This document shows positions 1 to 25,503 of a stretch of DNA of 44,080 nucleotides, in pieces. Below the pieces are notes generated by a model, which was not told the origin of the DNA, ran no database searches, and was given only the letters and a program-made list of their open reading frames with translations. Made by a program: the position numbers and the translations under genes. Positions within the stretch are counted from its first letter, which is position 1. Each line of letters begins with the position of its first letter. The stretch comes from a virus (lineage: Duplodnaviria; Heunggongvirae; Uroviricota; Caudoviricetes), in the IMG/VR virus record IMGVR_UViG_2609460218_000014, positions 1-44,080 of that record; one strand, 5' to 3'.

Positions 1-1
1 G

Positions 2-367: not shown

Positions 368-370
368 CGG

Positions 371-1363: not shown

Positions 1364-1454
1364 CCTCAACATTANTTTTTCTCTCTCGAGNAAAAAAAAC
1401 TGGATAGCGTACTGGAACAGAGCTCTCGTATTCTTATTCATTACCACCTATTTT

Positions 1455-3750: not shown

Positions 3751-3758
3751 CTCGTATA

Positions 3759-4772: not shown

Positions 4773-4796
4773 TTTAATTACCCTTCATCATAATCA

Positions 4797-5505: not shown

Positions 5506-5530
5506 AATGAATTATTTTAACCTTAAATCT

Positions 5531-6538
5531 TTAGAAGCATTTTTCTTTATAATACTTTAAATAATTAAAAATGCCTGCCATATAATGCTTTTGTTTAAAT
5601 TTATGTTTTGCACAATACCGATACTGATTGCTATTTACAGGTTTAAGTAAATCTTCTTTACTCCACGGAGAAGCTGCTTTGGCGATCAAAAAACTACGTG
5701 ACACCGGATAGTCAGCCCACTCATGCCAGGGTTTTGTAGGTCCCACATAGTGTATAAACACGGTGTCATCATTGACTGGATTATCAACTTTGTCTTTTAA
5801 TTCATAGTTAATACTATATCGGGTATTATATCTCTCCGAAATAAACTTCACTTTACCATTCAATAATACATTCAGTACATCTTGATCAAGGTGGGTGATT
5901 TTACTTACCCAATCTGGGTCACGCAACATTTCAATAGCTTTTGACGAAATGTTATTTAGATTCCACTCATCAATATTTATCAGTAAAAAACCAGCATTGA
6001 AATATCCAGAAGCTAACTGTGGTGTAGTTAATACCGAGGCTCGATTTTGCCACCATTCAACATCTCTTTCAGCTACAACTGCGGCAATTTCATTAGTAGA
6101 AAATTGATAATCTAAGAGTTCTTTAATACTACCCTTGCAAGCAATATCTGCATCAAGATATAGTATTTTTTCATGTTTATGATAGAAATAATCTGCAATT
6201 ATAAATCGAAAATATGTTGCGTAAGTCCAGTTTTTCGTGCTTGGTAATGACTTCAGCTTATCACAATTGATAACATAAATATTAATTCTTGAATTATATT
6301 GTTTTGCTAAATCAGAAAAATATAATTTGTCTTTATCACTGATATAATCTGTGAAAACATGAAATTCACAAGAGATTTCTCTATTGTTTAATAGAATAGA
6401 TGCGATGGCTACACCACATCCAAAAAGAAAATTTCTGTCAATACCAAATGCTATATCAAGAGTATTTTTAGATCTTATATTTTGATAATGAAAATTATAC
6501 TCAAAAAGGATGATGTCACTATCATTGAGTTGAGACAT
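5531..6538 (-). CDS. LPS core hexosyltransferase, GT8 family (WaaI/WaaO-like)
   Basis: 335 aa; GT8 motifs (YLDADIACKGS, HYVGPTKPW); immediately downstream of waaP. The waaS/waaB genes of K-12 are absent. Confidence 0.6.
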   Translation of the reverse strand: MSQLNDSDIILFEYNFHYQNIRSKNTLDIAFGIDRNFLFGCGVAIASILLNNREISCEFHVFTDYISDKDKLYFSDLAKQYNSRINIYVINCDKLKSLPSTKNWTYATYFRFIIADYFYHKHEKILYLDADIACKGSIKELLDYQFSTNEIAAVVAERDVEWWQNRASVLTTPQLASGYFNAGFLLINIDEWNLNNISSKAIEMLRDPDWVSKITHLDQDVLNVLLNGKVKFISERYNTRYSINYELKDKVDNPVNDDTVFIHYVGPTKPWHEWADYPVSRSFLIAKAASPWSKEDLLKPVNSNQYRYCAKHKFKQKHYMAGIFNYLKYYKEKCF

Positions 6539-6580
6539 ATTTATTCTGTATCCAAAATTTTGGCAAAAATAAGTTACGGG

Positions 6581-7387
6581 TTACAACGATTTTCGAATCG
6601 TTCTTTCCCTGATTTTTGTGGCTTTTGCTTCTGCTTGCAACAGCAGTCCTTGTTCCTGCTTGAGAATGTCTTTAAGCGGAGCGGCAAAATACACCTTCAT
6701 AAACCGCCAGATATCCCGCTGAGTCAGGCCAATATTCATCGAAGAAAAATAAAGTCCAATAAGATCTTTATCGCGCCAACGACGTGGAACTCGCGTGCGA
6801 AGCTGCGCCCGGTGCAGGTCAATTACCGAAATTTTTAACTCCTCTTCCTTACCGGAAAAAGGCAAGTGCAGCAGGAAATGACAGATATAACAGTCACGGT
6901 GATTAATGCCCGCAGCATGCATATCGCGCACCATCGTCGCGACACGCTTAATAAGCATACGCTTTACGCGAACATCTGGTGGGTTGGTCGCCCAGTCAGC
7001 ACAGTAATCTTCCAGACTTATGGTTGGTGTCAGATCTTCGGTAATAATAAACGAGGTTCTGGTCAGCGGATTCATGCCTTTTTCGCCGAATGCCACCCCA
7101 TACATAGTATCAACGCCGACATCCCGCAGTCGATGAATCGCATTCCATTCGCGGTCTGCGCCTAATACTGGCATCCGCAATGAGAGTAAATTTTTGATTA
7201 TCTCTTTCAGGGTCGTGCCGCGATGCCATTTGAGAAAATAGCTTTTTCCCGCCATTTCAAAGCGCAGAGTACGGCGAGTTTCCAGTTCACGAAATATCTC
7301 ACCCTGCAAGGTTTTAACTTCCTCAAAAGGATCTTTACCGCGCCATAACGTGGCAAACGGCTCTTTAAGTTCAACCATCCAGACCAC
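6581..7387 (-). CDS. waaP: LPS core heptose I kinase
   Basis: 268-aa ORF ...[21 protein letters not shown]... matches WaaP as I recall it; sits between waaG and the GT8 gene. Confidence 0.85.
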
Positions 7388-8484
7388 CCGTTATGATATC
7401 CGCCGCTTTCTCTGGCAGACTGTATAAATCTTGTGTATCAGCATAATGTCGCGCATTTTCCGCCCAGGCCTGGCGCAATGAAGATTGCGTTAACGCTTTG
7501 CGTAAAATCTCATTCAATGTTTCCTGGCGGAATGGCTCAGCAATAGCCTCGCCGCAATTGGCCTCGACAATATAAGGCGCATAGCCACAAACGGCTGTTG
7601 TTAGTACCGGTAATCCTGCAGTAATCGCTTCCAGCAGCACAATTCCCGCCGCTTCCTGGTAGGCAGGATGCAGTAATAAATCCGCCGCCGCCATTAATTC
7701 CGAGACATCATTGCGCCCCGAGAAGAAGTGAACATTACTGCGCACGCCGCGTTTTTCTGCCAGCGCCTCAAATTTTCGCGGTTTATCCTGCCCAACAACA
7801 TATAGCAATGTGTTGTGGCGCAGCGAATCCGGTAAAGAAGCAAGTGCTTCAATGGAACGATCGACACCTTTACGCGTGAAGTCTGAACCGACCTGCAACA
7901 ATAAATATTGTTGTTCGGTTATTCCATTCTTCTTACGGAAGATTTCACGGCTATTGGCTGGCTGCTGGCTATATTTACGATCAGGATAAATCCCCGGTGG
8001 CAGAATATGAAAACGCTCCGCTTCAGTCTGATAATGTTTCTGGAAATCGGCGATTTGCTTATCTGTCAGCATCAGCAGCTGTGTCGGCTTGCCCTGTTCG
8101 AAGGTTGCCCGCTCAAAGGCGGCATAATGGCGATAACGTGACGTCAGGCGATAGAAAAAGCCTTTCTCCTGCGCTACTTTCTCGGCATAACAAACATCAG
8201 CGGCATAATAAACGTCCAGCCCCGGCATTTTGTTGAATCCAACGACTTTATCGACGGGATGTTCGCGTAAATGTTTTTGCACCCAGGTAAAATACTCCGC
8301 ATTGCGCCCGTGATTGGTATGCGATTTAACCGGCACTTTGATCAGTTCAAATACATCAGGCATTCGNCTTCCCACGACTGGGTATAAACCCGAACATGAT
8401 GACCTCGGGCGGCGACTGTCTGAGCAATACGCATAAAATCGCGCTGCAAACCGCCAAAGGGAAAATATTTATATAAACAAAAAG
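7371..8484 (-). CDS. waaG: LPS core glucosyltransferase I
   Basis: Track ORF 7371..8375 is WaaG-like; an N at 8367 breaks the frame, and the upstream part translates as [41 protein letters not shown], the WaaG N-terminus, giving a start near 8484. Confidence 0.85.
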
Positions 8485-8490
8485 CAACGA

Positions 8491-9550
8491 TCATAACGAC
8501 GTACCTGTCGTGGAGGAGGGCAGTAATTTATCGACAGCAGCAATGACATCTGCCGCCGGAATAACCGAAAGATACATCTCATTTCGGTCACGCTGATCGC
8601 GCGTTGGCATTTCCCGGTAATCTCCCGCCCAGAATTGAATCATGTTATTTGACCAGGGACGCCAGAAAATATGGTCTGTCGCACCAAACAGCGATATCAG
8701 CGGCGTATTAACTGCAGCGGCAATATGCGCCGGTGCGGAATCAACGCCAATAAACAGCTGCGCATGATCGATTAACGCACCAAGTTCCGGGAAGGTCACC
8801 TTTCCAGCCAGCGCCGTTACTGGTGGCGTCTGGCATCCCTGCGCAATTTCATTGACGCAGGCCAGATCGTCTTTATCCGGGCCGGACGTCAGAACGACTT
8901 CATAACCACGAGCATGTAAGGCATCAATCACAGCGGAAAACTTGGCGTTGTCCCAGCATTTGAAGATTTGCCGCGCCGTAGGTTGGATAACCACATAATT
9001 TTGTCCAACACCAGCGTGATCAAGTTCGCGACGCATACGTTTCCAGCTTGCAGGCGGGTAACTCATGGTTGTCTGCTTCACCAACGAATCAAGTCCCAAT
9101 GGTGTCAGCACGGATAAGTTACTTTCCACCACATTTCCACCCTGCAACGGCACCAAATGGGTGAAACTTTTACGCCAAAAAGCAGACTGCCGATGATGAT
9201 AATCCTGGGAAATTTTCACACGAGCATTTAATAAGCGAACCAGTATAGCAACCATCCATTGATCGGTAAGATTGACGATAAGGTCATACTTATTGGCACG
9301 TAATACCTTGATGAGATGAAAAAAGTTGGCAATTTTTTCTGAGGCTTTTGCNTTTTTTATTTTTTATGCCGTAGAGCGCGTTAATCTCTGGATTTTCAGA
9401 CAGGATCGGGATGGTGTCCTGATAAAGCAGCACATCGATTTTTGCGTCAGGGTAATTTTTTTTCAGCGAACTAATGACGGGAGTAGTTAATAACATATCC
9501 CCATGAAAACGCATCTTAATGAGCAAAATTCTTCGAAATGGCTTATCCAC
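8491..9550 (-). CDS. waaQ: LPS heptosyltransferase III; split into two track ORFs (8491..9255, 9290..9550) by an apparent frameshift
   Basis: N-terminal fragment MDKPFRRILLIKMRFHGDMLLTTPVISSLKKNYPDAKIDVLLYQDT is a typical GT9 N-terminus; break coincides with an N in a T-run at 9352. First gene of the operon, divergent from waaA. Confidence 0.75.
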
Positions 9551-9599
9551 AAGTAACTCTTTTTGTTGAGATTATCCGATTAAGGTGAAGCAGAAAAAG

Positions 9600-9611
9600 C
9601 ACGCTACCGCC
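9600..9611 (-). promoter_or_regulatory. ops element (RfaH recruitment site, part of JUMPstart) in the waaQ operon leader
   Basis: Plus strand reads cacgctaccgcc, the reverse complement of GGCGGTAGCGTG, in the untranslated leader upstream of waaQ. Confidence 0.75.
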
Positions 9612-9962
9612 CCAGGCTCAACAGCTACCTGAATACTGATACCGCACTGATATTGACGCGCTAGTGTATCACTTCTTTCGCGGCAATCCGACCCGAATGA
9701 TTTTTAAGCACATTGTTGATTTTCAATAAAGAAATCAATCAAATAAAATCATTAGCAACCATATTCTTTCACTGTTGCTCTGCGATTCCTTCCTGCACGT
9801 ACAGCAGAAATCAATGAATCGCATAAAAATACAAAAAAAGTATAGATGTTCAGCAAGAATTGGCGGGTAAATTGCTATTTAAGTCAAAAACGGGAAAAGT
9901 AATGGTAAAGCCACAGCTAAATACATAGAATCCCCAGCACATCCATAAGTCAGCTATTTACT

Positions 9963-11727
<1,765 letters not shown>

Positions 11728-11765
11728 CGTTTATGCCGGATGGTATGCCATCCGGCGCGCATGAA

Positions 11766-12575
11766 TTACTTCTGGCACTGCCGACAATAAAACGTTGCCC
11801 GCTGCGCATGTTTAGTCGCCACAATCGGCGTACCGCACACCCGACACGGCTCACCTTTTCGCCCGTAAACCTGCAATTCCTGAGCGAAATAGCCCGGTTT
11901 ACCATCACTTTGCAGAAAATCTTTCAGCGTTGTACCACCCTGCTCAATCGAACGCAGCAACACCGCTTTAATCACCCGAGCTAACAATTCACACTCTGCC
12001 AGCGACAGTGATGACGCCAGCCGATCCGGATGGATCCCCGCCGCAAACAGTGATTCGCTGGCATAGATATTCCCTACCCCTACCACCAGCTTGTTATCCA
12101 TCAGCCACGGTTTAATCGCCGTTTTTTTCTTCGCGCACTTCTGATGCAGATACTCACCATTGAAATCGTCGCTAAGCGGCTCCGGTCCAAGATGGGTCAG
12201 CACATTATGNCCTTCCAGCTCTTTGGTCCACAGCCAGGCACCAAAGCGGCGCGGATCGGTGTAGCGCAGCACTTTGCCGTTGCTCATCACCAAATCCACA
12301 TGGTCATGCTTTTCAGGGGGAAGTTCTTCTGGAAGGATGCGCAGGCTGCCAGACATCCCTAAATGAATGATAATCCAGCCCTCAGGCAGCTCCAGCAGCA
12401 GATATTTAGCCCGCCGCTGCACGCTAAGCACTGGTTGGTCGCTTAAACGGTAGATCTCTTCTGAAACCGGCCAGCGCAAGCGTCCGTTGCGCACCACTGC
12501 ATGAAGAATGGTTGCACCAACGAGATGCGGTTCTATGCCGCGGCGGCTGGTTTCAACTTCGGGTAATTCAGGCAT
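11766..12575 (-). CDS. mutM: Formamidopyrimidine-DNA glycosylase
   Basis: Track ORF 11766..12602; the conserved N-terminus MPELPEVE begins at residue 10; C-terminal zinc finger CRVCGTPIV...CRQCQ. Confidence 0.9.
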
Positions 12576-18100: not shown

Positions 18101-18964
18101 ATGATCCGCAGTATGACCGCCTACGCCCGGCGTGAAATCAAGGGTGAATGGGGGAGCGCAACCTGGGAAATGCGCTCGGTAAACCAGCGTTATCTGGAAA
18201 CTTACTTTCGTCTGCCGGAGCAGTTCCGTAGCCTTGAACCTGTCGTTCGCGAGCGTATTCGTTCTCGCCTGACGCGCGGTAAAGTGGAATGTANCCTGCG
18301 CTATGAGCCAGATGTTAGCGCACAAGGTGAGCTGATCCTCAATGAAAAACTGGCTAAACAGCTGGTAACTGCCGCGAACTGGGTAAAAATGCAGAGTGAC
18401 GAAGGGGAAATCAACCCGGTTGATATTCTGCGCTGGCCGGGCGTGATGGCAGNCCAGGAGCAGGATCTCGACGCCATTGCCGCTGAAATTCTCGCGGCGC
18501 TGGATGGTACGCTGGACGACTTTATTGTCGCGCGCGAAACCGAAGGTCAGGCACTGAAAGCATTGATCGAGCAGCGTCTGGAAGGCGTCACCGCCGAAGT
18601 GGTCAAAGTCCGCGCCCATATGCCGGAAATCCTGCAATGGCAGCGTGAGCGTCTGGTCGCGAAGCTGGAAGATGCTCAGGTTCAGTTGGAAAACAACCGT
18701 CTGGAGCAGGAGTTGGTTCTGCTGGCACAACGAATTGACGTTGCCGAAGAACTGGACCGCCTGGAAGCGCATGTCAAAGAGACCTACAACATTCTGAAGA
18801 AAAAAGAAGCCGTTGGTCGTCGTCTGGACTTTATGATGCAGGAATTCAACCGCGAGTCGAACACTCTTGCGTCGAAATCTATCAATGCCGAAGTGACAAA
18901 CTCCGCCATCGAGCTGAAAGTGTTGATTGAGCAGATGCGCGAGCAGATTCAGAACATTGAGTAG
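18101..18964 (+). CDS. yicC: YicC-family stress-induced protein
   Basis: 287 aa, MIRSMTAYARREIKGEWGSATWEMRSVNQRYLE...; conserved neighbour of rph. Confidence 0.9.
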   Translation: MIRSMTAYARREIKGEWGSATWEMRSVNQRYLETYFRLPEQFRSLEPVVRERIRSRLTRGKVECXLRYEPDVSAQGELILNEKLAKQLVTAANWVKMQSDEGEINPVDILRWPGVMAXQEQDLDAIAAEILAALDGTLDDFIVARETEGQALKALIEQRLEGVTAEVVKVRAHMPEILQWQRERLVAKLEDAQVQLENNRLEQELVLLAQRIDVAEELDRLEAHVKETYNILKKKEAVGRRLDFMMQEFNRESNTLASKSINAEVTNSAIELKVLIEQMREQIQNIE

Positions 18965-19004
18965 CGTATCACCTCATATCATTCAGAATCACCAACCAGA
19001 AGAA

Positions 19005-19028
19005 GCCCGCTAATCACGGGCTTTTTTC
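19005..19028 (+). terminator. Intrinsic terminator of yicC
   Basis: Hairpin gcccg-ctaatca-cgggc followed by tttttt. Confidence 0.7.
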
Positions 19029-19140
19029 ATATCACAAAGTTGCAGTTAGCATCATAAAAGCGCATATTTCTCGTGTACCCAATAGTGTCCCTATGAGGCA
19101 GAGGCATTAAGTAGATAGGGTACGCAACCAATGAGGTGAT

Positions 19141-20396
19141 ATGGGCAAGCTAACAGACATTCAGATCAAGGCCTGGATAAAGGCCGGAACAAGGTTCGAG
19201 GGTAAATCGGACGGTAACGGTTTATATTTGCGCTATCGCACTACTGACACGTCCCCATCATGGCGTTTCCGCTACCGCTTCGCTGGCAAGCCTCGTGTTA
19301 TGACAATTGGCGCGTATGGCGTTATCTCACTGGCTAAAGCCGGGAGATCACCCGAGAGCTGGCTGCTCGTGTTTCTCTGGGGTATGACGTTGCCGGTGAG
19401 AAGCAGGAGCGAAAAGCCGCATTAAAAGCCCAGTTGGAAGCCGACCAGCATGACAAAACAGTGTCCGAAGTAGCTGAAGACTATTTTAAGAAGAAAGTAC
19501 TGGGTACATGGAAACACCCCGACATCCTCCGCCGTCGTCTGGCGAAAGACATTAATCCTCGCATAGGTCAGAAAAAGGTTAAGGACGTCAAACCCCGAGA
19601 TATTGATGCCTTGCTTCAGGCCATCTTAAAACGTGGTGCGCCATCTATTGCTAATGACGTCTTGCGCTGGATACGTCGTATCTTTGACCATGCGATCAAG
19701 CTGGGGATGATTGAGGTTAACCCCGCTGCTGCCTTTGATATGAGTGACGCGGGCGGTAAGGAAACATCTCGTGAACGTTGGTTAACCAGGCAGGAACTGG
19801 TTCAATTCTTTGAAGCCATGCGAATGGCAAAAGGCTTTAGTCGTGAGAACGAGTTAACTCTAAAGCTGCTGCTGGTCACTTGCGTGAGAAAGATGGAACT
19901 GTGCGCCGCACGCTGGAGCGAGTTCGATTTAGCCAACGGCATTTGGTACTTACCGGGCGAACGCACAAAGACAGGCGACGGGATTGATATTCCACTGCCA
20001 AAACAGGCTATCGAATGGTTGGAGGAGCTGCGCCTTCTCTCTTGTAACAGCAAATGGGTATTACCTGCGCGAAAACAACAGCATCGCATGATCCCCCATA
20101 TTCAGGAAAGCACCCTACCCGTTGCGCTGGCGAAGGTTAAGCATGAGATGCCTGGTGTACCGAACTTCACTATTCACGACCTTAGGCGCACCGCACGCAC
20201 CCATCTCGAAGCGTTAGGTGTGAATCCCATTGTTGCTGAGCGTTGCCTTAATCACCGCATCAAAGGCGTCGAGGGCATCTACAACCGTCACCAATATTTA
20301 AACGAACGGCGGGAAGCGCTGGCCATGCTGGGCAACCTGATGGAAGCCTTAGAGCGTGGCGAGGAATACAACGTTCAACCATTGAGGAAAGCATGA
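19141..20396 (+). CDS. Tyrosine integrase, P4 family (arm-binding N-domain plus catalytic domain); frameshifted in this sequence
   Basis: Track ORFs 19141..19425 and 19434..20396; N-terminus KLTDIQIKAW...GNGLYLRYRTT...WRFRYRFAGK and C-terminal HDLRRTARTHL...YNRHQYLNERR are typical. One missing C in a CCC run near 19337 would restore ISLAKAREITRELAARVSLGYDVAGEKQERKAA and a single ~418-aa ORF. Confidence 0.85.
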
Positions 20397-20433
20397 TGAT
20401 TCAGTGGATAGGTTTTCAATATTGTTTTTTTGC

Positions 20434-20546
20434 CTGTCCCACGCGTCCCATCTGTCCCGTTTTGTAAAGATAAAATAAATTCAATCAGTTACGAACACTA
20501 ACATGGGACAAAACACGGGACAGGACGGGACAAATTTTTCTGTCCC
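20434..20546. repeat. Array of about 7 GGGACA/TGTCCC hexamer repeats in both orientations (putative protein-binding sites)
   Basis: Three TGTCCC-type copies at about 10-bp spacing (20434-20459), an AT-rich spacer, then three GGGACA copies at 10-12 bp spacing and an inverted pair gggacaaatttttctgtccc (20527..20546); lies between int and orf179. Confidence 0.6.
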
Positions 20547-20586
20547 GTCCTCAAATTGAATAAACAATAACCGATAAGGGCAATAA

Positions 20587-21126
20587 ATGAATGATAACAA
20601 CAGTGTCCCAACGATTACGCTTCATGACCCTAAGCCGTGGTATGAGGTAGACCCATTGGTAATAAATGCTATGGAACTGACCGGCGCATCATATGAAGAA
20701 CTTAACGCCGGGGTATCTCTGTGCGTTGACGTTTGGGACGCCGATAGTCCAAATACTTTCCTTATAAATTGCAGGATCAAATGGGTTAAATACACATATG
20801 ACCTCACAGGTTTCGCCATTGCTCGTTATTTTTGGACTAACCCTGAGAAAGACACCCTGCTAAGTGAGGTAGTTACTACTGAATATCAGCGTAGGAGAGA
20901 ATCTCTTGAGCTGGAGATAAAAAAGGAGCGGGAAAAGAACGCCGGTTACGGGAAAACAAACCCGAAAAAAGATGAGATTATTGAAGAGTTTAAATTGTGG
21001 AAAGAAAAATACCCACAAGGCAGTTGTAAACAATTTCATCAACAGCTAACACGGCAAACAAAAAGAGGGGAAAAAGTCCCTTCAGTTAGAAGCATACAAG
21101 ACTGGACGAAAATACTGCGCAATTAA
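20587..21126 (+). CDS. Hypothetical protein (179 aa), island-encoded, no family recognised
   Basis: ORF with a good SD (aaggg 8 nt upstream of ATG); acidic N-half, lysine-rich charged C-half (EIKKEREKNAGYGKTNPKKDEIIEEFKLWKEKYPQ); located between int and alpA. Confidence 0.55.
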   Translation: MNDNNSVPTITLHDPKPWYEVDPLVINAMELTGASYEELNAGVSLCVDVWDADSPNTFLINCRIKWVKYTYDLTGFAIARYFWTNPEKDTLLSEVVTTEYQRRRESLELEIKKEREKNAGYGKTNPKKDEIIEEFKLWKEKYPQGSCKQFHQQLTRQTKRGEKVPSVRSIQDWTKILRN

Positions 21127-21197
21127 AAACAACTGCGCAATTAGCTCGGTATCCTCTCAGTACGTCGCAAATAGACGCGTTCACAGAGGAATTAAAT

Positions 21198-21392
21198 ATG
21201 AAAAATGATTTTCCCTTATCTGGCTACGTTCGCCCTTCTCGGGTGAGCGAATTCCTAGATATAAGCCCGGCCACAATGTGGCGCTGGGCAGCAAAGAGTG
21301 AGTTTCCAAAAAGCCGTAAGCTGAGTTCCCGCGTAACAGTTTTTGATGCCGCAGAAATCAGACGTTGGCTGGCGGCGAAAAGTGCAGATTAA
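21198..21392 (+). CDS. alpA: AlpA-family transcriptional regulator / excisionase-like winged-helix protein
   Basis: 64 aa; VRPSRVSEFLDISPATMWRWAAKSEFPKSRKLSSRVTVFDAAEIRRWL matches the AlpA signature; SD gagga upstream. Confidence 0.85.
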   Translation: MKNDFPLSGYVRPSRVSEFLDISPATMWRWAAKSEFPKSRKLSSRVTVFDAAEIRRWLAAKSAD

Positions 21393-21407
21393 TGGAGGTG
21401 GTGAGTT

Positions 21408-21884
21408 ATGAGCTTAATCGCTGAGATTCAAACGGCAGCATCNGGTAAGTGGCCTGCCGTGTTACGTGCTTTAGGCGTCGACGTGCCTGAAAAGCAGGCG
21501 CACATCCCTTGTCCCGTATGTGGCGGCAAAGACCGGTTTCACTTTAAACACGACGATGTAGGTTCGAGTTACTGCCGGGGGTGTAATAAGTGGCGCGACG
21601 GATTACAGCTAGCTCGAGATTGTGGGGCCTCTGTTTCTCAGATCGCCAATGCCGCTGGAATAAACACAACGCGCCACGCGCCGCTAGGCAGGCGAAAGGT
21701 CAGCTTGCCACCACACACAACTGCGTTACTGGCTGGGAAGCAGAAATTAAGGGAGCAGGGTGCAGAATGGATAAAAGTGTGGCTGGACTGTCAGGAGGCA
21801 GCAATTTTATGGCACGAATATGAAAAAAACGGCAGCCCCTTTGAGGAGAGCCGCCGTCTTTATGGACTACATAGACAACTTTAA
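21408..21884 (+). CDS. Primase-type zinc-ribbon protein (Cys-X2-Cys-X17-Cys-X2-Cys), no catalytic primase domain evident
   Basis: 158 aa; CPVCGGKDRFHFKHDDVGSSYCRGC as in primase-helicase zinc-binding domains; strong SD ggaggtg; start overlaps alpA stop. Confidence 0.7.
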   Translation: MSLIAEIQTAAXGKWPAVLRALGVDVPEKQAHIPCPVCGGKDRFHFKHDDVGSSYCRGCNKWRDGLQLARDCGASVSQIANAAGINTTRHAPLGRRKVSLPPHTTALLAGKQKLREQGAEWIKVWLDCQEAAILWHEYEKNGSPFEESRRLYGLHRQL

Positions 21885-21892
21885 TTCTTTGC

Positions 21893-21916
21893 GCTTCCCG
21901 GTTGCCCCCGGGAAGC
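21893..21916 (+). other. Perfect 9-bp stem hairpin between the zinc-ribbon gene and the helicase gene
   Basis: gcttcccgg-ttgccc-ccgggaagc with no following T-run; in the 56-bp gap between the two genes. Confidence 0.4.
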
Positions 21917-21940
21917 AAAACAACAAGGGACATAATCACC

Positions 21941-23377
21941 ATGTCAGAGAATACTGTAACTCACCTACCTCTCAAGTCAACCATGAAAGAACCGGTGTCC
22001 GGTGCGCCAGCACAGGCGGCTAAGTATGATTCTATGCCGCTGGCAAAGATGCAACCCGGCGAACGCATCGCCGCGTTTGTTGCAAAGACTGGCCGTTATT
22101 CACTTCATCGGGCAAGTGATACCTTGTACCGTTTTGATGGTGCTATCTGGCGGGCAATCAGCGATTCAGCTGTGAAAAGTGATTTAGCAGACTTCTACAT
22201 GACCCGCGGCTTTCAACCCGGTGCCAGTGTCTTTGAAAGCGACGCGCGAGCGCTGAAGATATATTCATCGACCAAACAATCTCCAGAGATGGCGGAACCA
22301 AAAGCCGGGGTAATCGCCTTTGCCAACGGCGTTTACTCAATCATAGACGGTTCATTTTCCAGCCATTGTGCGGAAAACTGGTTGCGCTCACATAACGGCA
22401 TAGACTATGCAGCAGCACTCCCCGGAGAGACACTGAGCGGCAGTGCCCCACATTTTAGCAAGTGGCTAGCGCACAATGCCGGTAATGATGAAGCGAAGGC
22501 CAAGCGGATACTGGCGGCTCTGTATATGGTTCTGACTCATCGCTACGAATGGCAGCTATACGTTGAGGTAACTGGCAAAGGTGGTAGCGGTAAGAGTGTA
22601 TTTATGTCTCTGTGCAGATTGCTATCAGGGGAAGACGGCTCAAAGGCTACAACCTTACACGCGCTGCGCGACTCAATGGCTCTAGAAACATTGATTGATG
22701 CCAGGCTCATTACCATGAGTGATCAGCCCGCATATAGCGGCGATTGTGCGAATTTAAAAGCCATTACCGGCGGTGACTCCATTTTCATCAATCCCAAGTA
22801 CAAGAAGGGGTTCGATGCGAAAATTAACGCCGTTGTAGTCGTGGCTAACAACGAACCTGCTGTATTTACTGAGCATAACGGGGGCATATCCCGCCGCCGG
22901 GTACTGTTTAAGTTTGGTGAACCGGTAGAAAGACCTGACCCTGAGTTTATGGCGAAGATAAAAACTGAATTGCCGGTAATCGTGCGTCACTTGCTCAAGG
23001 AATTGGATGATACTACCGCAAAAAGTCTGCTCATCCAGCAACGAGACTCAGAGGAATCGTTTGACGCTAAAGCGGAGGCCAGTAGCATTTACTCCTTCGT
23101 TAAACACCTGGACCCACTGCCAGCGCCTACAGGTATGCGCATGGGTGGCAAGGCATCATCCTCAAACGCGGAGCGGCCCAGAGAGTTCCTTTACCATGCG
23201 TATTTGGCATTTATGCAATACAACGGGTTCCAGAATCCACTTTCGGTTCTGAAATTCAGGCAAGCTGTTATTGCGATAATGAAAGAGCGCGGGCACGAGT
23301 TCGCGGATAAAAGGGACTCCGTTGGTCTCCGCTACAACGTGGAGTTGGCCGAATCAGCCAGCGAATGGCTTCCGTAA
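21941..23377 (+). CDS. SF3 (D5/P4-type) replicative helicase / NTPase, the C-terminal domain family of phage-plasmid primases
   Basis: Track ORF 21902..23377; likely start MSENTVTHLPL; Walker A VTGKGGSGKSVF, Walker B-like LITMSD, sensor-like VVVVANNEP; directly upstream of the iteron region. Confidence 0.8.
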   Translation: MSENTVTHLPLKSTMKEPVSGAPAQAAKYDSMPLAKMQPGERIAAFVAKTGRYSLHRASDTLYRFDGAIWRAISDSAVKSDLADFYMTRGFQPGASVFESDARALKIYSSTKQSPEMAEPKAGVIAFANGVYSIIDGSFSSHCAENWLRSHNGIDYAAALPGETLSGSAPHFSKWLAHNAGNDEAKAKRILAALYMVLTHRYEWQLYVEVTGKGGSGKSVFMSLCRLLSGEDGSKATTLHALRDSMALETLIDARLITMSDQPAYSGDCANLKAITGGDSIFINPKYKKGFDAKINAVVVVANNEPAVFTEHNGGISRRRVLFKFGEPVERPDPEFMAKIKTELPVIVRHLLKELDDTTAKSLLIQQRDSEESFDAKAEASSIYSFVKHLDPLPAPTGMRMGGKASSSNAERPREFLYHAYLAFMQYNGFQNPLSVLKFRQAVIAIMKERGHEFADKRDSVGLRYNVELAESASEWLP

Positions 23378-23397
23378 CATACTTTCAACATTAAAAG

Positions 23398-23425
23398 CTG
23401 GGGCGCATGATTGCGCCCTTTTTTA
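23398..23425 (+). terminator. Intrinsic terminator after the helicase gene
   Basis: gggcgca-tgat-tgcgccc followed by tttttt. Confidence 0.7.
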
Positions 23426-23466
23426 ATTCCATCGATAGATCAGAATATTTAGNTTTTTTTATGAAA

Positions 23467-23690
23467 GTCCTACATGTCTTACACCAAATGAAATTAAATT
23501 ATATATAACAATAAATTAGATAATGTAGGACCTTAAAAATATCCTACACAGGTCCTACATAACTCCTGCACTCGAAGCCTCGTAGTGTAGGGTTTAAGGA
23601 AGCCCCTCGCCAGTCCTACACAAGTCCTGCACTTTCTAACAAATTGTTTTAAATGATTTTTTTAATGGAGAATGTAGGAGTGTAGGACAT
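23467..23690. repeat. Iteron cluster (about 8 copies of GTCCTACA / TGTAGGAC in both orientations) next to an AT-rich stretch: putative island replication origin
   Basis: Copies at about 23467, 23523, 23543, 23552, 23585, 23613, 23672, 23681; preceded by an AT-rich segment (23440-23520); no ORF of 60 aa or more on either strand between 23378 and 24087. Confidence 0.6.
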
Positions 23691-24195
23691 GAAGGACTTT
23701 CCAGGAAAAACTATATTTTGAATATTTGAGCCTAAAAAATGGACACCCTTGCGCTACGCGCCGCTAGGCAGGGAAAGTGGTTTTCATAACATGTATTTAA
23801 CAATCGCATTCCCATTCGGAACCAGCGGGCCGGAATGATCCTGATACAGGCGTTCAGCATGGAGTGAGAATCAACGTTTTTTGATGCCCTACTGACCCCA
23901 GATTAATCTTTGGTCGGTAGCGGGAAGCCTTCGTTCTGGTCAGGGTAATGTCAGGGTGATGCTTACGTTTTATGACTATTTTAGTTAGCAATAGTTAGCA
24001 ACCTACTCAAATCAAAACTTCTCAAAGTTAATTCCTAAAACGAAAAAGCCCCCACATTTCTGTAGGGGCCGTTTCGTCATTCTGCGCTTGATGGTCGGAA
24101 GGATGGCCGACAAATATATACTATCTCTTTATGTACTCACGAACCAGTACGATAGTACAATAAGCCGTCAATTCTTCAAAATGATGGTGATAGCG

Positions 24196-24588
24196 ATGAA
24201 CGAAGTAGATTCAATTCTGGCCGAGCAGAAAAGAGCCGCAGAACAACGCCGCTTGGCTAATGAGAAGAAGCGCCATCCATCCGGCCTGTACGCCGTTGGT
24301 GATGGGTGGTATGTGAAGCAAATCGAAGAGCTTCACTCCCCGCTTGGTCTTAGCAAGGTGGTTCTGGTAAGCCCTGATGATGTTTGTGTGAGATATCAGC
24401 GCCAATATGGCAAAGCACTCACCACTGACAAATTGAAGGAATGGAGCAGGGACGGGAACTTCCCTTTGCCGCGCTCTATTAATGGGGTTATCGGTTGGGA
24501 ATCGAATGTTGTGACCAATGGCCTGAATGAACTGAGCAAAGCAGCCGGTCGAGGTTATACCAGTATTACACGAGGGTTCGCACGATGA
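24196..24588 (+). CDS. Hypothetical protein (track ORF 24088..24588, 166 aa; likely start at MNEVD giving about 130 aa), first gene of cargo cassette
   Basis: Protein-like composition; SD-like ggtgat upstream of the internal ATG; stop overlaps the next ORF start (ATGA). No family recognised. Confidence 0.5.
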   Translation: MNEVDSILAEQKRAAEQRRLANEKKRHPSGLYAVGDGWYVKQIEELHSPLGLSKVVLVSPDDVCVRYQRQYGKALTTDKLKEWSRDGNFPLPRSINGVIGWESNVVTNGLNELSKAAGRGYTSITRGFAR

Positions 24589-24782
24589 GCAAAGAATCTG
24601 TAATGGCGGCATTGAGAAAGGCGCGTGAAGGCAATATCTTTGGCGGTACTGGTCAGGCCGAATTTAACAAAAATTTTTACGCTGGCCGCGTCACCAAAAC
24701 AGATGGTGTTAGTAAGACCGACAGTAACGAGCCGATGAACCAAAAGGCATTTAATGCCCGGTTCTATGCGGGGAAATCATGA
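24585..24782 (+). CDS. Hypothetical small protein (65 aa) with internal duplicated N-x-x-F-Y-A-G-[RK] motif
   Basis: ATGA overlap with the upstream ORF and SD gaggg; NKNFYAGRV and NARFYAGKS repeat within the protein. Confidence 0.5.
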   Translation: MSKESVMAALRKAREGNIFGGTGQAEFNKNFYAGRVTKTDGVSKTDSNEPMNQKAFNARFYAGKS

Positions 24783-24841
24783 CTGAGGCATATGCGCTCT
24801 GTGTGATGCTGTACTGCTACCTGATGCTTATCTGCCCGTAA
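24779..24841 (+). CDS. Possible 20-aa hydrophobic Cys-rich peptide (MTEAYALCVMLYCYLMLICP)
   Basis: Start overlaps the ORF65 stop (ATGA), SD-like gggga upstream, followed by a hairpin terminator. Too short for any compositional statistics. Confidence 0.3.
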   Translation: MTEAYALCVMLYCYLMLICP

Positions 24842-24860
24842 CCTTCCCTCACTGCCAAGC

Positions 24861-24884
24861 GCCGCCGAAAGGCGGTTTCTTTTG
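24861..24884 (+). terminator. Putative short intrinsic terminator/attenuator after the coupled ORFs
   Basis: ccgcc-gaaa-ggcgg (GNRA-type loop) followed by tttcttttg. Confidence 0.4.
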
Positions 24885-24901
24885 ACCTGATGGAGTCTGT
24901 C

Positions 24902-25183
24902 ATGCTGAATGTGAACCGCTTGCCCAACAGCACCCGCCTACAGATTGCCGCCGCTATTGCTGAAGAGGTTTACGCGCTGGATCTGGATGATGAGGCGTTA
25001 ATTCATGAGCTGCGTCGTTATGGATTCAGCCAGGCTTATGCGGAAGCAATGACTTTCAGATTTATGACGCCAGCCTTTGAAATCGCAGATCCACGGCGCG
25101 AACGTAAAACAAAAATGCCAGCGCCCACCTCTCANCCCGAATGGGTTTTTGTTGATAATGTTTTAATGAAGATCACGGCGTGA
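24902..25183 (+). CDS. Hypothetical protein (track ORF 24890..25183, 97 aa; likely start at MLNVNRL)
   Basis: SD ggag 9 nt upstream of the second ATG; contains one N; last ORF before the island's right end. No family recognised. Confidence 0.5.
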   Translation: MLNVNRLPNSTRLQIAAAIAEEVYALDLDDEALIHELRRYGFSQAYAEAMTFRFMTPAFEIADPRRERKTKMPAPTSXPEWVFVDNVLMKITA

Positions 25184-25382
25184 CTTACACAAAATTACAA
25201 TTGGTCATAAATCACACAATAAAAATTGTAATCCCTGTAAATCCATGTACCCATACGTGTACACAAGCAAAACAAGAAAAACAAAAATCATTTAAATATC
25301 AATACATATAACCCACAATTCAATATTCAGATTCAATATTGAGTAACTCGTAACACTAATTCTTACTTTTCAGCCTTCACAA

Positions 25383-25416
25383 ATGCCGCCCACTCAAACA
25401 GAGCGGCATTTTTCTT
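25383..25416 (+). terminator. Putative intrinsic terminator near the right end of the island
   Basis: atgccgc-(13-nt loop)-gcggcat followed by tttttct. Confidence 0.4.
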
Positions 25417-25503
25417 CCCCGCAACTTCAATTCTGTTTTGCGTGCCTGCTCCAGATTTTGCGATGTTTTTTTGCCCAGCACACTGAGAACGTGAGATACT
25501 CAC

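What the first reader, a model, noticed from the sequence alone, without database searches (positions are those of the whole stretch)
19031..25420. Compact (~6.4 kb) integrase-AlpA-primase/helicase island inserted between yicC and dinD
Core genes yicC and dinD are adjacent in E. coli K-12 as I recall, but here they are separated by a unidirectional block: P4-family tyrosine integrase, 179-aa ORF, AlpA, primase-type zinc-ribbon protein, SF3 helicase, iteron-rich ORF-free region, and three or four small unknown ORFs. This is the replication/regulation core of phage satellites (PICI or P4-like) with no recognisable capsid-remodelling or packaging genes (no psu/delta/sid, no terS), and is much smaller than classical enterobacterial PICIs. 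It may be a minimalist satellite whose cargo is not described.
Basis: partly seen in the sequence, partly recalled or inferred. Interest (0 to 1): 0.85.

Follow-up and report, generated by a model that had tools for sequence, protein, structure and literature searches.

The report
Minimal PICI-type island in yicC
A 6.4-kb mobile island sits in the 3' end of yicC; it is an unusually small relative of phage-satellite islands (PICIs) already recorded at this E. coli site, with integration and replication genes plus three genes of unknown function and no packaging genes, and whether it still moves has not been tested.

Summary
A 6.4-kb one-directional block separates yicC from dinD, which are adjacent in K-12. 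It is bounded by an imperfect 20-bp direct repeat made of the last 20 nt of yicC. It encodes a P4-type arm-binding integrase, an orphan 179-aa protein, AlpA, a split P4-alpha-like replication protein without its Toprim part, an 8-mer iteron origin, and three conserved orphan genes.

The reading as a minimal phage satellite is only partly supported. The anatomy matches Gram-negative PICIs and Vibrio PICMIs. The helicase's best matches in the phage collection are satellites (P4, a cfPICI, Pasteurella PICIs). A relative with the same att core exists as a 12.2-kb circle.

The kind is already described:
- yicC-dinD is a published PICI site (EcCIRM13514, 2018).
- Int+AlpA+primase elements are SatelliteFinder "Type C PICIs".
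- EcCIMP1 and PICMI115 are validated precedents.

No helper, pac/cos site or attP junction of this island was found, so mobility is inferred. The integrase frameshift is probably a sequencing artefact, because the same CCC-to-CC deletions hit coaBC, yicG and trmH. What is new is modest: the small size for an enterobacterial PICI-type element, the two-module mosaic structure, and the orphan trio. Interest is about 0.35.

The parts
18944..18963 (+). attL core: CAGATTCAGAACATTGAGTA, the last 20 nt of yicC. The island supplies the end of the reading frame and the TAG stop codon.
   Evidence: Alignment with the empty K-12 site and with relatives. A near-identical 21-mer, taken as the attP core, lies upstream of int in the circular relative L019.
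19003..19029 (+). Island-borne GC hairpin followed by a T run (aagcccgctaatcacgggcttttttc). It replaces the native yicC terminator, which now lies beyond attR.
   Evidence: Read from the sequence. The terminator scan listed this hairpin on the - strand only. It is conserved in all variants and in the attP region of L019.
19072..19080 (+). Candidate arm-type integrase site (CGTGTACCC) in the P' arm.
   Evidence: CRTGTACMC occurs 4 times in 44 kb, always at the island ends. None of 100 shuffles reached 4. GTGTACA motifs flank attP in L019.
19141..20396 (+). P4-type tyrosine integrase (418 aa in relatives). Here it is split into 19141-19425 and 19434-20396 by a 1-nt deletion in a CCC run at about 19339.
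   Evidence: Pfam Arm-DNA-bind_3, Phage_int_M and Phage_integrase on the intact L001 copy. Frameshift located. The same type of homopolymer deletion occurs in coaBC, yicG and trmH. The protein is 69% identical to the EcCIRM13514 integrase.
20433..20551 (.). Cluster of TGTCCC(G) repeats in both orientations between int and the next gene. This is a candidate operator/promoter region of the rightward operon.
   Evidence: 4 of the 9 exact TGTCCCG matches in the window fall within 95 bp here.
20587..21126 (+). 179-aa orphan protein in the hypervariable slot between int and alpA.
   Evidence: No match at E <= 0.1 in Pfam or NCBIfam, and none at E <= 0.01 in PHROG or PADLOC. Only 2 clusters found among 5.8 billion sequences. 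Relatives carry unrelated proteins of 201, 204, 249 or 307 aa in this slot.
21198..21392 (+). AlpA-family winged-helix regulator/excisionase (64 aa).
   Evidence: PF05930 E 2.5e-10 and HTH_17 E 3.6e-7. PHROG 'excisionase and transcriptional regulator'.
21408..21884 (+). 158-aa primase-type zinc-ribbon protein, homologous to P4 alpha residues 3-151.
   Evidence: PF08273 E 1.4e-8. tblastn against P4: 33% identity over 158 aa, E 3e-13.
21941..23377 (+). SF3 (D5/P4-alpha type) helicase-initiator, 478 aa, homologous to P4 alpha residues about 356-768. The Toprim domain is absent.
   Evidence: DUF5906, Pox_D5 and D5_N. TIGR01613. 38% identical to P4 alpha, 36% to the cfPICI vB_KppS-Ant, 33-35% to the Pasteurella PICIs Pmp7/8. 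P4 alpha domain map.
23400..23425 (+). Intrinsic terminator after the helicase gene.
   Evidence: 8-bp stem with 6 GC pairs, followed by TTTTTT.
23460..23700 (.). Putative origin: about 10-12 copies of the 8-mer GTCCTACA in both orientations, flanking AT-rich stretches. The layout is the same as the P4 alpha - terminator - crr/ori type-1 repeat arrangement.
   Evidence: 10 of 19 window-wide matches fall here. P4 annotation for comparison.
23701..23879 (.). ORF-free stretch at the variable cargo slot. It is empty here. Relatives carry 1-3 genes in it: 146 aa + TM2 protein; 138 aa; or 205 aa + DUF5681 protein + 54 aa.
   Evidence: Similarity to the other variants resumes at 23880.
23880..24183 (+). 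Conserved non-coding leader of the right-hand module. It holds a palindrome at 23889-23920, tandem repeats GTCAGGGTRAT x2 (23939-23960) and TAGTTAGCAA x2 (23982-24001), and a GC hairpin at 24047-24070. It could be a regulatory region or a packaging site.
   Evidence: Conserved at about 98% among variants.
24184..24588 (+). ORF-A, 134 aa (annotated as 161 aa from 24103 in RefSeq). A coiled N-terminus is followed by a probable AlpA/Xis/PrtN-type winged helix containing the motif GNFPLPRSINGVIGW.
   Evidence: Homologues only in Enterobacteriaceae. Only 5 hits among 1.84 billion representatives. One homologue is named 'pyocin activator PrtN family' by NCBI, but Pfam PyocinActivator scores only E 0.16-0.28. 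hhalign against AlpA: probability 38%, E 3e-4. The AF2 model is poor (pLDDT 53).
24585..24782 (+). ORF-B, 65 aa (68 aa in relatives). Its start overlaps the ORF-A stop codon. It has an internal repeat FNxxFYxG. Function unknown.
   Evidence: No tblastn hit in phages. It travels with ORF-A in a 13.3-13.9-kb circular element.
24902..25183 (+). ORF-C, 93 aa. The N-terminal three-helix domain and the C-terminal tail are highly conserved. Function unknown.
   Evidence: AF2 pLDDT 73.6. No fold match in PDB or BFVD at E <= 0.001; best 1.9 and 0.2. No phage hit.
25244..25264 (+). Two candidate arm-type integrase sites (CATGTACCC and CGTGTACAC) in the AT-rich P arm.
25328..25345 (+). attR core: CAGATTCAATATTGAGTA. 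It is 18 nt long, 2 nt shorter than in relatives.

Best explanation
This is a site-specific integrative replicon of the P4/PICI lineage. It is the smallest variant seen here of the PICI-type islands that target the 3' end of yicC. In SatelliteFinder terms it is a 'Type C PICI'. In gene order it resembles a Vibrio PICMI.

Shown by this analysis:
- It is inserted into the last 20 nt of yicC and is flanked by that 20-mer as a direct repeat.
- It regenerates the yicC stop codon and brings its own terminator.
- It carries an arm-binding tyrosine integrase, AlpA, a split Toprim-less P4-alpha-type helicase-initiator, and an adjacent iteron array.
- It is a mosaic of two modules. One is a conserved block, ORF-A/B/C - attP - int, which is contiguous in the excised circle. 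The other is an exchangeable block: slot gene - alpA - replication - ori - cargo.

Inferred by analogy with EcCICFT073, EcCIMP1 and PICMI115:
1. An infecting or induced helper phage switches on the alpA operon.
2. AlpA, possibly with the second winged-helix protein ORF-A, directs Int to excise the circle.
3. The helicase melts the iteron origin. Host or helper enzymes prime and copy the DNA, producing concatemers.
4. Because the island has no capsid or terminase genes, the concatemers are packaged into full-size helper heads through a pac/cos-like site or by headful packaging.
5. The island re-integrates into yicC in the recipient.

This particular copy may be impaired, or simply mis-sequenced, in int and attR.
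For: - Empty site and junctions.
- Domain content.
- Iterons. The layout mirrors P4 alpha - terminator - crr.
- The helicase's best phage-collection hits are satellites: P4 alpha 38%, the cfPICI vB_KppS-Ant 36%, Pasteurella PICIs 33-35%.
- Compared with the published yicC-dinD PICI EcCIRM13514: integrase 69%, AlpA 41%, helicase 35%.
- An E. coli 12,152-bp circular 'plasmid' (NZ_CP148430.1) is a PICI-type element. A 21-mer matching the yicC 3' end, CAGATTCAGAATATCGAATAA, lies upstream of its int, where attP is expected. So elements of this att lineage do excise and persist as circles.
- Arm-type repeats occur only at the island ends.
- The same 6.4-kb arrangement, with an intact int in the copy inspected (L001), recurs in 6-9 E. 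coli genomes from humans, pigs, poultry and frogs.
- The integration module is shared with Citrobacter, and ORF-A at 97% identity with Kluyvera. This implies recent horizontal transfer.
- Precedents for functional satellites with only int, alpA and a primase-type gene: PMC11773190 and PMC10803314.
Against: - No helper is known.
- The island has no DNA similarity to any of 50,697 phage records.
- There is no lambda-type cosN or P2/P4 cos site in it.
- No terS, rpp or capsid homologue was found.
- The predicted attP junction of this island is absent from IMG/VR and JGI metagenome contigs.
- No relative of the helicase was found in viral contigs; one relative of ORF-A was, in L004, a prophage-derived UViG.
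- In this copy int has a frameshift and attR lacks 2 nt.
- A 4.9-kb relative has lost the replication module, which shows that the family can decay in place.
- The catalytic Toprim part of the primase is absent.
Confidence: 0.55

Rival explanations
1. It is a defective, decaying remnant of a larger yicC PICI. It is vertically inherited, no longer excises or transfers, and has lost the Bro zone, the late/packaging zone and primase catalysis.
For: - It is half the size of EcCIRM13514 and CfCIP10159.
- int has a frameshift.
- attR has a 2-nt deletion.
- The Toprim domain is missing from a split alpha homologue.
- The cargo slot is empty.
- A relative (L016) has deleted its replication module.
- No attP junction was found in public contigs.
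Against: - The int frameshift is a CCC-to-CC deletion of the same kind seen in the essential gene coaBC and in yicG and trmH of this window, so it is most probably a sequencing error.
- The int of L001 is intact.
- The 6.4-kb arrangement recurs in 6-9 strains from different hosts and countries.
- The published PICI EcCIRM13514 and the element I read as a cfPICI (vB_KppS-Ant) also lack Toprim.
- Near-identical modules occur in Kluyvera and related ones in Citrobacter.
- The modules are shuffled between variants, which implies ongoing exchange.
Confidence: 0.25
2. It is an integrative mobilisable element that is transferred by conjugation, using the machinery of a helper plasmid or ICE through an unrecognised oriT. 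Other yicC-targeting islands behave this way (MGIVmi1 and SGI1-like islands mobilised by IncA/C, or PIMEs mobilised by IncP).
For: - The 3' end of yicC is a known att site of IncA/C-mobilised genomic islands (PMC4207636 and PMC8409611, found).
- PIMEs also combine int, alpA and a replicase.
- The absence of packaging genes is equally compatible with this reading.
Against: - No relaxase, mobilisation or trb/tra gene was found.
- The only similarities to 72,556 plasmids are integrase-like genes, an 89-bp stretch of the helicase gene matching a plasmid DUF5906 gene, and ORF-A/B on a non-mobilisable 13-kb circle. Nothing oriT-like turned up.
- The closest relatives of the replication protein are phage satellites.
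- The PIME core genes trbJ, trbL and repA are absent.
Confidence: 0.07
3. It is a self-replicating integrative episome with no dedicated helper. It excises and replicates autonomously as a plasmid-like circle and spreads only by generalised transduction, vesicles or transformation. The orphan genes would serve maintenance or host-benefit functions.
For: - Relatives are recorded as small 'non-mobilisable plasmids' in complete genomes: L019 (12.2 kb) and L018 (13.3 kb).
- ORF-A/B travel with a ParA partition system in the 13.3-13.9-kb circle.
- No helper-specific gene can be recognised.
Against: - The island has no partition or addiction genes.
- The AlpA-controlled, unidirectional int-alpA-rep layout is the hallmark of helper-induced satellites (PMC6092414).
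- Uncontrolled replication of such islands is toxic to the host (PMC6092414).
Confidence: 0.1

Closest known systems
EcCIRM13514 and CfCIP10159, the Gram-negative PICIs listed at yicC-dinD and yicC-yicG (Fillol-Salom et al. 2018, ISME J, Table S1)
   Same: - Same att site at the 3' end of yicC.
- Same orientation and order: int, AlpA, D5/DUF5906/Pox_D5 replication protein, origin.
- Integrase 69% identical, AlpA 41%, helicase 35%.
- The replication protein lacks Toprim in both.
- No phage structural genes.
   Different: - They are 11.9-12.4 kb; this island is 6.4 kb.
- This island has no Bro/Rha/AntA zone, no Icd-like gene, and no SSB, ProQ or PerC genes.
- It carries a separate zinc-ribbon ORF.
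- It has the ORF-A/B/C trio instead of their right-hand genes.
PICMI115 and PICMI-like elements of Vibrionaceae (Barcia-Cruz et al. 2024, Nat Commun)
   Same: - Size: 6.1-6.7 kb there, 6.4 kb here.
- Gene order: int, small variable gene, alpA, small gene, DUF5906-type 'primase', a long non-coding region, then accessory gene(s).
- No capsid-remodelling or terminase genes.
- Flanked by short direct repeats (17 bp there, 20 bp here).
   Different: - PICMIs integrate downstream of fis, which their authors call a hallmark, and were found complete only in Vibrionaceae. This island is in yicC of Enterobacteriaceae.
- The slot gene does not overlap int.
- The helper and packaging mode are unknown here.
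Satellite phage P4
   Same: - Arm-binding P4-type integrase (26% identity).
- AlpA-like ORF88.
- Alpha-type replication protein: the zinc-ribbon ORF matches alpha 3-151 and the helicase matches alpha 356-768.
- A terminator followed by 8-mer iterons downstream of the helicase, as in P4 crr.
   Different: - No psu, delta, sid, epsilon, cI or cos.
- Alpha is split and lacks its Toprim domain.
- Gene orientation relative to int differs.
- Integration is into a protein-coding gene, not a tRNA gene.
EcCIMP1 (E. coli MP1; ISME J 2025)
   Same: - It is classed as a Type C PICI (int, AlpA and primase only, no identifiable packaging genes), yet it was shown to be induced and transduced by a helper phage, Kapi1.
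- It carries a second AlpA/Xis-like gene at the far end, as ORF-A may be here.
   Different: - It is 20 kb and integrates in tRNA-Thr.
- It carries antirepressor, PerC and virulence-related genes.
- No sequence similarity to it was tested here.

Membership tests
Gram-negative PICI (Fillol-Salom 2018; SatelliteFinder PICI model) | Integrase at one end, with the other genes transcribed unidirectionally away from it | tested here: met
   All ORFs lie on the + strand, downstream of int.
Gram-negative PICI (Fillol-Salom 2018; SatelliteFinder PICI model) | AlpA-family regulator downstream of int | tested here: met
   PF05930, E 2.5e-10.
Gram-negative PICI (Fillol-Salom 2018; SatelliteFinder PICI model) | Primase/replicase module with an origin downstream of it | tested here: met
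   D5_N/DUF5906/Pox_D5 helicase plus a zinc-ribbon ORF, followed by a GTCCTACA iteron array. The Toprim catalytic domain is absent, as it is in EcCIRM13514.
Gram-negative PICI (Fillol-Salom 2018; SatelliteFinder PICI model) | A dedicated att site | tested here: met
   yicC-dinD is listed as the att site of EcCIRM13514. All occupants of the site inspected here are PICI-type.
Gram-negative PICI (Fillol-Salom 2018; SatelliteFinder PICI model) | Capsid-morphogenesis component | tested here: not met
   No Pfam or PHROG structural hit in any ORF.
Gram-negative PICI (Fillol-Salom 2018; SatelliteFinder PICI model) | Small terminase or another packaging-redirection component | tested here: not met
   No terS-like hit. 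No lambda cosN or P2/P4 cos in the island. Rpp was not compared directly. With 3 of the 5 core components the island is a 'Type C' element, which de Sousa et al. did not accept as a confident PICI.
Gram-negative PICI (Fillol-Salom 2018; SatelliteFinder PICI model) | Helper-phage-induced excision, replication and packaging | not testable with these tools
   Indirect evidence only: a circular relative with the same att core. The attP junction of this island was not found in public contigs.
PICMI (Barcia-Cruz 2024) | Co-located int, alpA and prim (DUF5906 or DUF3987) in an element of about 6-7 kb without capsid-remodelling genes | tested here: met
   The island is 6.4 kb.
PICMI (Barcia-Cruz 2024) | Integration downstream of fis (the authors' stated hallmark) in a Vibrionaceae host | tested here: not met
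   The island is integrated in the 3' end of yicC, in Escherichia, Citrobacter and Kluyvera.
PICMI (Barcia-Cruz 2024) | Packaged as concatemers by a virulent helper phage | not testable with these tools
   No helper is known.
P4-like satellite (SatelliteFinder P4 model) | psu, delta, sid, epsilon and alpha together with alpA and int | tested here: not met
   Only int, alpA and a split, Toprim-less alpha homologue are present. There is no P2/P4 cos site.
Integrative mobilisable elements at yicC (SGI1-like islands, MGIs) and PIMEs | Mobilisation genes or an oriT related to a helper conjugative element (mpsA, traG/H/N; trbJ, trbL, traJ/I) | tested here: not met
   No such domains were found. Apart from integrase-like genes, ORF-A/B and an 89-bp helicase-gene match, there was no similarity to plasmid DNA. 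An unrecognised oriT cannot be excluded.

The most novel reading that the evidence does not exclude
Enterobacteriaceae harbour a PICMI-like lineage of minimal phage satellites at yicC. Their only helper-exploitation functions would be the conserved orphan trio ORF-A/B/C and its conserved repeat-rich leader. ORF-A would be a PrtN/AlpA-like winged-helix protein that either activates helper late genes, as P4 Delta does, or acts as the recombination directionality factor. ORF-B and ORF-C would redirect packaging of 6.4-kb concatemers into full-size heads. That would be a hijacking module unrelated to Sid/Psu, Rpp, TerS or capsid-scaffold strategies.
Probability: 0.15. Interest if true: 0.6.

Novelty: new variant of a known kind. 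Interest (0 to 1): 0.35.

Why it matters
If intact copies prove mobile, this family would show that stripped-down satellites of the PICMI grade are not a marine Vibrio peculiarity. They would also exist in E. coli, Citrobacter and Kluyvera, at a site where full-size PICIs are already recorded.

That would give a tractable E. coli system for asking three questions. What is the minimum a satellite needs in order to be packaged? What do the many 'Type C PICI' calls really represent? What do the conserved orphan genes ORF-A, ORF-B and ORF-C do?

The hypervariable slot between int and alpA and the cargo slot after the origin are also natural places to look for new single-gene anti-phage systems. 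As it stands, this is a genomic description of a small member of a known class, and this copy carries no cargo of evident medical or ecological importance.

Tried and rejected
1. DNA similarity of the whole island to 50,697 phage records at blastn sensitivity: none. No helper or shared cos/pac site could be proposed.
2. Lambda cosN and P2/P4 cos patterns: none in the island.
3. PADLOC on all ORFs: no defence-system hit apart from trivial HTH noise.
4. Rfam, including P4 CI/C4/isrK-type RNAs: nothing near threshold.
5. Predicted attP junction pattern in IMG/VR and JGI metagenome contigs: no match.
6. Helicase relatives in viral contigs and in one genome per species: none by the pattern method.
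7. ORF-A:
   - Exhaustive profile search of 1.84 billion representatives gave only 5 hits.
   - No PDB sequence match.
   - The AF2 model is too poor to use (pLDDT 53).
   - The PrtN label rests on one NCBI name and sub-threshold Pfam scores, so I kept it as a lead only.
8. ORF-C: the AF2 model is acceptable (pLDDT 73.6), but there is no significant fold match in PDB or BFVD.
9. ORF-B and ORF-C by tblastn against phages: none.
10. 179-aa protein: an orphan with 2 clusters, so no structure job was worthwhile.
11. Integrase pseudogene: rejected as firm evidence after finding the same CCC/GGG-run deletions in coaBC, yicG and trmH.
12. PIME and SGI1-like IME membership: rejected for lack of any transfer gene.
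13. The 5.8-kb Logan contig L009 as a possible circular form: rejected. It is a chromosomal fragment without terminal overlap.

Full report
OBSERVATION

The window carries the core-genome stretch from the waa (LPS core) genes through yicC, dinD, yicG and ligB to yicJ. In K-12, yicC and dinD are neighbours separated by 220 bp. Here 6.4 kb lie between them.

Aligning the K-12 intergenic region with both ends of the insert, and comparing several relatives, puts the junctions at a 20-bp direct repeat:
- attL core, 18944-18963: CAGATTCAGAACATTGAGTA. These are the last 20 nt of yicC, including two bases of its stop codon.
- attR core, 25328-25345: CAGATTCAATATTGAGTA. Relatives have the full 20-mer with one C/T difference; this copy lacks 2 nt.

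The island therefore integrates into the 3' end of yicC. It regenerates the reading frame and the stop codon. It also brings a GC hairpin plus T run (19003-19029) that replaces the native terminator, which now lies right of attR.

- An arm-binding P4-type tyrosine integrase.
- A 179-aa ORF without family.
- AlpA (PF05930, E 2.5e-10).
- A 158-aa primase-type zinc-ribbon protein.
- A D5_N/DUF5906/Pox_D5 superfamily-3 helicase.
- An ORF-free repeat region.
- Three small ORFs without any Pfam, PHROG, NCBIfam or PADLOC match.

The repeats are real. Ten of the 19 matches to GTCCTACA (up to 1 mismatch) in the whole 44-kb window lie within 23467-23697, in both orientations, around AT-rich stretches.

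SEQUENCE QUALITY AND THE 'BROKEN' INTEGRASE

In this window the integrase is split by a 1-nt deletion in a CCC run at about 19339, relative to the intact 418-aa gene of E. coli 30EVA2.

The window also has 25 Ns. Against a 99.5%-identical genome it shows the same kind of single-base loss in CCC/GGG runs in three core genes: coaBC (14394, essential), yicG (27231) and trmH (32784). The frameshift is therefore most probably a sequencing artefact and cannot be used as evidence of decay.

The 2-nt loss in attR is not in a homopolymer and may be real.

WHAT THE PARTS ARE

The replication genes are a split version of the P4 alpha protein. P4 alpha has this domain order: Zn_Ribbon_Prim (30-66), Toprim (210-299), D5_N, DUF5906, Pox_D5.
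- The 158-aa ORF aligns with alpha 3-151 (33% identity, E 3e-13).
- The helicase aligns with alpha 356-768 (38% identity).
- The Toprim catalytic segment is absent.

This is not by itself a sign of degeneracy. The replication proteins of the published PICI EcCIRM13514 and of the cfPICI vB_KppS-Ant also lack Toprim.

The layout 'helicase gene - terminator (23400-23425) - 8-mer iterons in both orientations' mirrors P4 'alpha - t-alpha - crr type-1 repeats'. I take 23460-23700 to be the origin. This is an inference.

In the phage collection the best relatives of the helicase are satellites: P4, a 16.5-kb capsid-forming PICI, and the Pasteurella PICIs Pmp7/8. Two Serratia phages also appear.

Candidate arm-type integrase sites (CRTGTACMC) occur four times in the window, always at the island ends (19072, 19502, 25244, 25256). 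None of 100 shuffles gave four.

A cluster of TGTCCC(G) repeats between int and the next gene (20433-20551), and a tandem ACTGCGCAATTA before alpA, look like operators.

THE FAMILY AND ITS MOSAIC STRUCTURE

Among 5426 complete E. coli genomes:
- 5403 match the query that includes the flanking sequence.
- 33 carry this integrase (at least 84% identical over at least 80% of its length).
- 37 match the right-hand module, 30 of them over at least 80% of its length.
- Only 6-9 carry this exact 6.4-kb arrangement.
- About 50 more have a 74%-identical integrase. The one example inspected (L007) also lies at yicC.

Other occupants of the site:
- 8.3-kb variants with a Toprim protein plus a DUF927 helicase (L002, L008).
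- A 12.5-kb element with AntA/Bro, Icd-like, TOPRIM-DUF927, SSB and PerC genes (L007).

In Citrobacter portucalensis the same int and the same final trio flank yet another middle section.

Similarity between variants covers int plus about 135 nt (to 20532) and resumes at 23880. In the excised circle the conserved part is therefore one contiguous 3-kb block, ORF-A/B/C - attP - int. The exchangeable 3.3-kb block is slot gene - alpA - replication - ori - cargo.

Two slots are hypervariable:
- Between int and alpA: unrelated proteins of 179, 201, 204, 249 and 307 aa. The 179-aa protein is an orphan with two clusters among 5.8 billion sequences.
- Between the origin and ORF-A: empty here, but holding one to three genes in relatives.

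So this copy has essentially no cargo.

A food-metagenome contig shows a 4.9-kb derivative that has lost the helicase and the origin. The family can therefore decay in place.

THE ORPHAN TRIO

ORF-A (134 aa from 24184):
- It has homologues only in Enterobacteriaceae.
- A profile search found only 5 hits among 1.84 billion representatives.
- Its conserved C-terminal half (LVSPEQVC..YQRQYGK.LT...LK.W...GNFPLPRSINGVIGW) reads like an AlpA/Xis/PrtN-type winged helix.
- One homologue is named 'pyocin activator PrtN family' by NCBI. However, Pfam PyocinActivator reaches only E 0.16-0.28, and hhalign against an AlpA alignment gives probability 38%, E 3e-4.
- The AF2 model is poor.
- I treat 'second winged-helix DNA-binding protein' as a lead, not a finding.

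ORF-B (65 aa) overlaps the stop codon of ORF-A and contains an FNxxFYxG repeat.

ORF-C (93 aa) has a very conserved three-helix N-terminal domain. Its model is acceptable (pLDDT 73.6), but it has no significant fold match in PDB or BFVD.

None of the three has a phage homologue.

ORF-A and ORF-B also occur on a separate element of 13.3-13.9 kb that encodes int, Toprim, VapE, ParA, Arc, DUF5681 and tail-like proteins.
- It was assembled as circularly permuted, 100%-identical contigs from two samples, with a 78-bp terminal overlap.
- It is also recorded as a Shigella 'plasmid'.

EVIDENCE ON MOBILITY

In favour:
- A 12,152-bp circular 'plasmid' of E. coli Z1323CEC0013 (NZ_CP148430.1) is a PICI-type element with int, an int-overlapping ORF, AntA, Icd, TOPRIM-DUF927 and PerC.
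- Upstream of its int, where attP is expected, lies the 21-mer CAGATTCAGAATATCGAATAA, which matches the yicC 3' end. It is followed by the same kind of replacement terminator and flanked by GTGTACA repeats. Elements of this att lineage therefore excise and persist as circles.
- The module's presence at 97% identity in Kluyvera, and in related form in Citrobacter, argues for recent transfer.

Against, or missing:
- No DNA similarity to any phage record.
- No known cos sequence.
- No attP junction of this island in IMG/VR or JGI contigs.
- No helper candidate.

COMPARISON WITH WHAT IS KNOWN

- Fillol-Salom et al. 2018 list EcCIRM13514 (11.9 kb, yicC-dinD, att GAGCAGATTCAA) and CfCIP10159 (12.4 kb, yicC-yicG) among their reference Gram-negative PICIs. 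The island's integrase, AlpA and helicase are 69%, 41% and 35% identical to those of EcCIRM13514.
- A Williams-lab preprint notes attB drift among yicC PICIs.
- By the SatelliteFinder scheme the island has three of the five PICI core components. That makes it 'Type C', a class of more than 6000 elements that the authors set aside as ambiguous.
- One Type C element, EcCIMP1, has since been shown to be helper-induced and transduced. It also has a second AlpA/Xis-like gene at its far end.
- In size and gene order the island is closest to the Vibrio PICMIs: int, small variable gene, alpA, small gene, DUF5906 'primase', a long non-coding region, then accessory genes, in 6.1-6.7 kb. But the PICMI authors define integration at fis as a hallmark and found complete PICMIs only in Vibrionaceae. 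The island works like a PICMI on paper but is not a member by their definition.
- It is not a P4-like satellite: it has no psu, sid, delta, epsilon or cos.
- It is not a PIME or an SGI1-type mobilisable island: it has no transfer genes, and its only similarities to plasmids are integrase-like genes, ORF-A/B on a non-mobilisable circle and an 89-bp helicase-gene match.

VERDICT

The element is best described as a minimal, cargo-free, Type C PICI/PICMI-like integrative replicon of the yicC att lineage. Integration, regulation and replication functions are recognisable. Helper dependence and packaging are inferred by analogy.

The kind is known. What is new is the 6.4-kb minimal form in Enterobacteriaceae, the two-module mosaic architecture, the split Toprim-less alpha homologue, and a conserved orphan trio of unknown role.

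Interest is moderate to low (0.35). It would rise if an intact copy were shown to be packaged by a phage using only these genes.

Noticed in passing
window 14394, 19339, 27231, 32784, and 25 Ns scattered through the window: The window has single-base deletions in CCC/GGG runs relative to a 99.5%-identical genome. They fall in coaBC (essential), int, yicG and trmH. Together with the 25 ambiguous bases, this suggests a homopolymer-error-prone assembly, so apparent frameshifts in this window should not be read as pseudogenes.
   Followed up: yes
L010 1-13958, L011, L018 (NZ_CP055032.1), L005 10432-16111: A 13.3-13.9-kb circular element encodes a short tyrosine integrase, Toprim and VapE helicase proteins, ParA, Arc/RHH and DUF5681 proteins, two tail-like proteins (PhageMin_Tail and Dit/baseplate), and the same ORF-A/ORF-B pair. 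It was recovered as 100%-identical, circularly permuted contigs from two metagenomic samples and as a Shigella flexneri 'plasmid'. In E. coli C10 part of it is fused to a truncated prophage tail operon. It may be a satellite or phage-plasmid of an undescribed type.
   Followed up: partly
L019 (NZ_CP148430.1) 1-12152; attP core at 9349-9369: A 12.2-kb 'non-mobilisable plasmid' of E. coli is in fact an excised yicC-targeting PICI. A 21-mer matching the 3' end of yicC, which I take to be its attP core, lies upstream of int. Other small 'plasmids' with P4-type integrases (K. pneumoniae 19-22 kb, Raoultella 17.8 kb) may be similar excised islands.
   Followed up: partly
L007 25591-27581; L013 11434: The 12.5-kb yicC island of E. 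coli STN0717-20 carries its own dinD copy just inside attR, next to the chromosomal dinD. In Citrobacter the equivalent site is yicC-yicG, with no dinD. The E. coli dinD gene, which lies immediately next to attB, might itself be a fixed remnant of an island of this kind.
   Followed up: no
L016 1-5240: A food-metagenome contig holds a complete 4.9-kb relative, attL to attR, in which the 3' part of the Toprim gene, the DUF927 helicase gene and the origin are deleted. This is an in-situ decay product of the family.
   Followed up: partly
window 20433-20551 and 21114-21145: There are dense TGTCCC(G) repeats in both orientations between int and the 179-aa gene, and a tandem ACTGCGCAATTA pair overlapping the end of that gene just before alpA. 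These are possible operator sites where the inducing signal acts.
   Followed up: partly
window 23880-24183: The leader of ORF-A is conserved at about 98% across replication-module variants. It contains a 32-nt palindrome, two different tandem 10-11-mers, and a strong GC hairpin that scores as a terminator only on the minus strand. Its function (regulatory, antisense termination or packaging site) is unknown.
   Followed up: no
window 1-6684: The left end of the window (LPS core waa region) has no megablast match to the K-12 waa genes. The next 12 kb are only 92.9% identical. The strain therefore has a non-K-12 LPS core type.
   Followed up: no
L017 2929-3579; L019 10823-11473: In the larger yicC PICIs, the gene after int overlaps the int stop codon by 4 nt. 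This is the same int-overlapping arrangement described for the iolg gene of Vibrio PICMIs. In the window's island the slot gene is separated from int by 190 nt instead.
   Followed up: no
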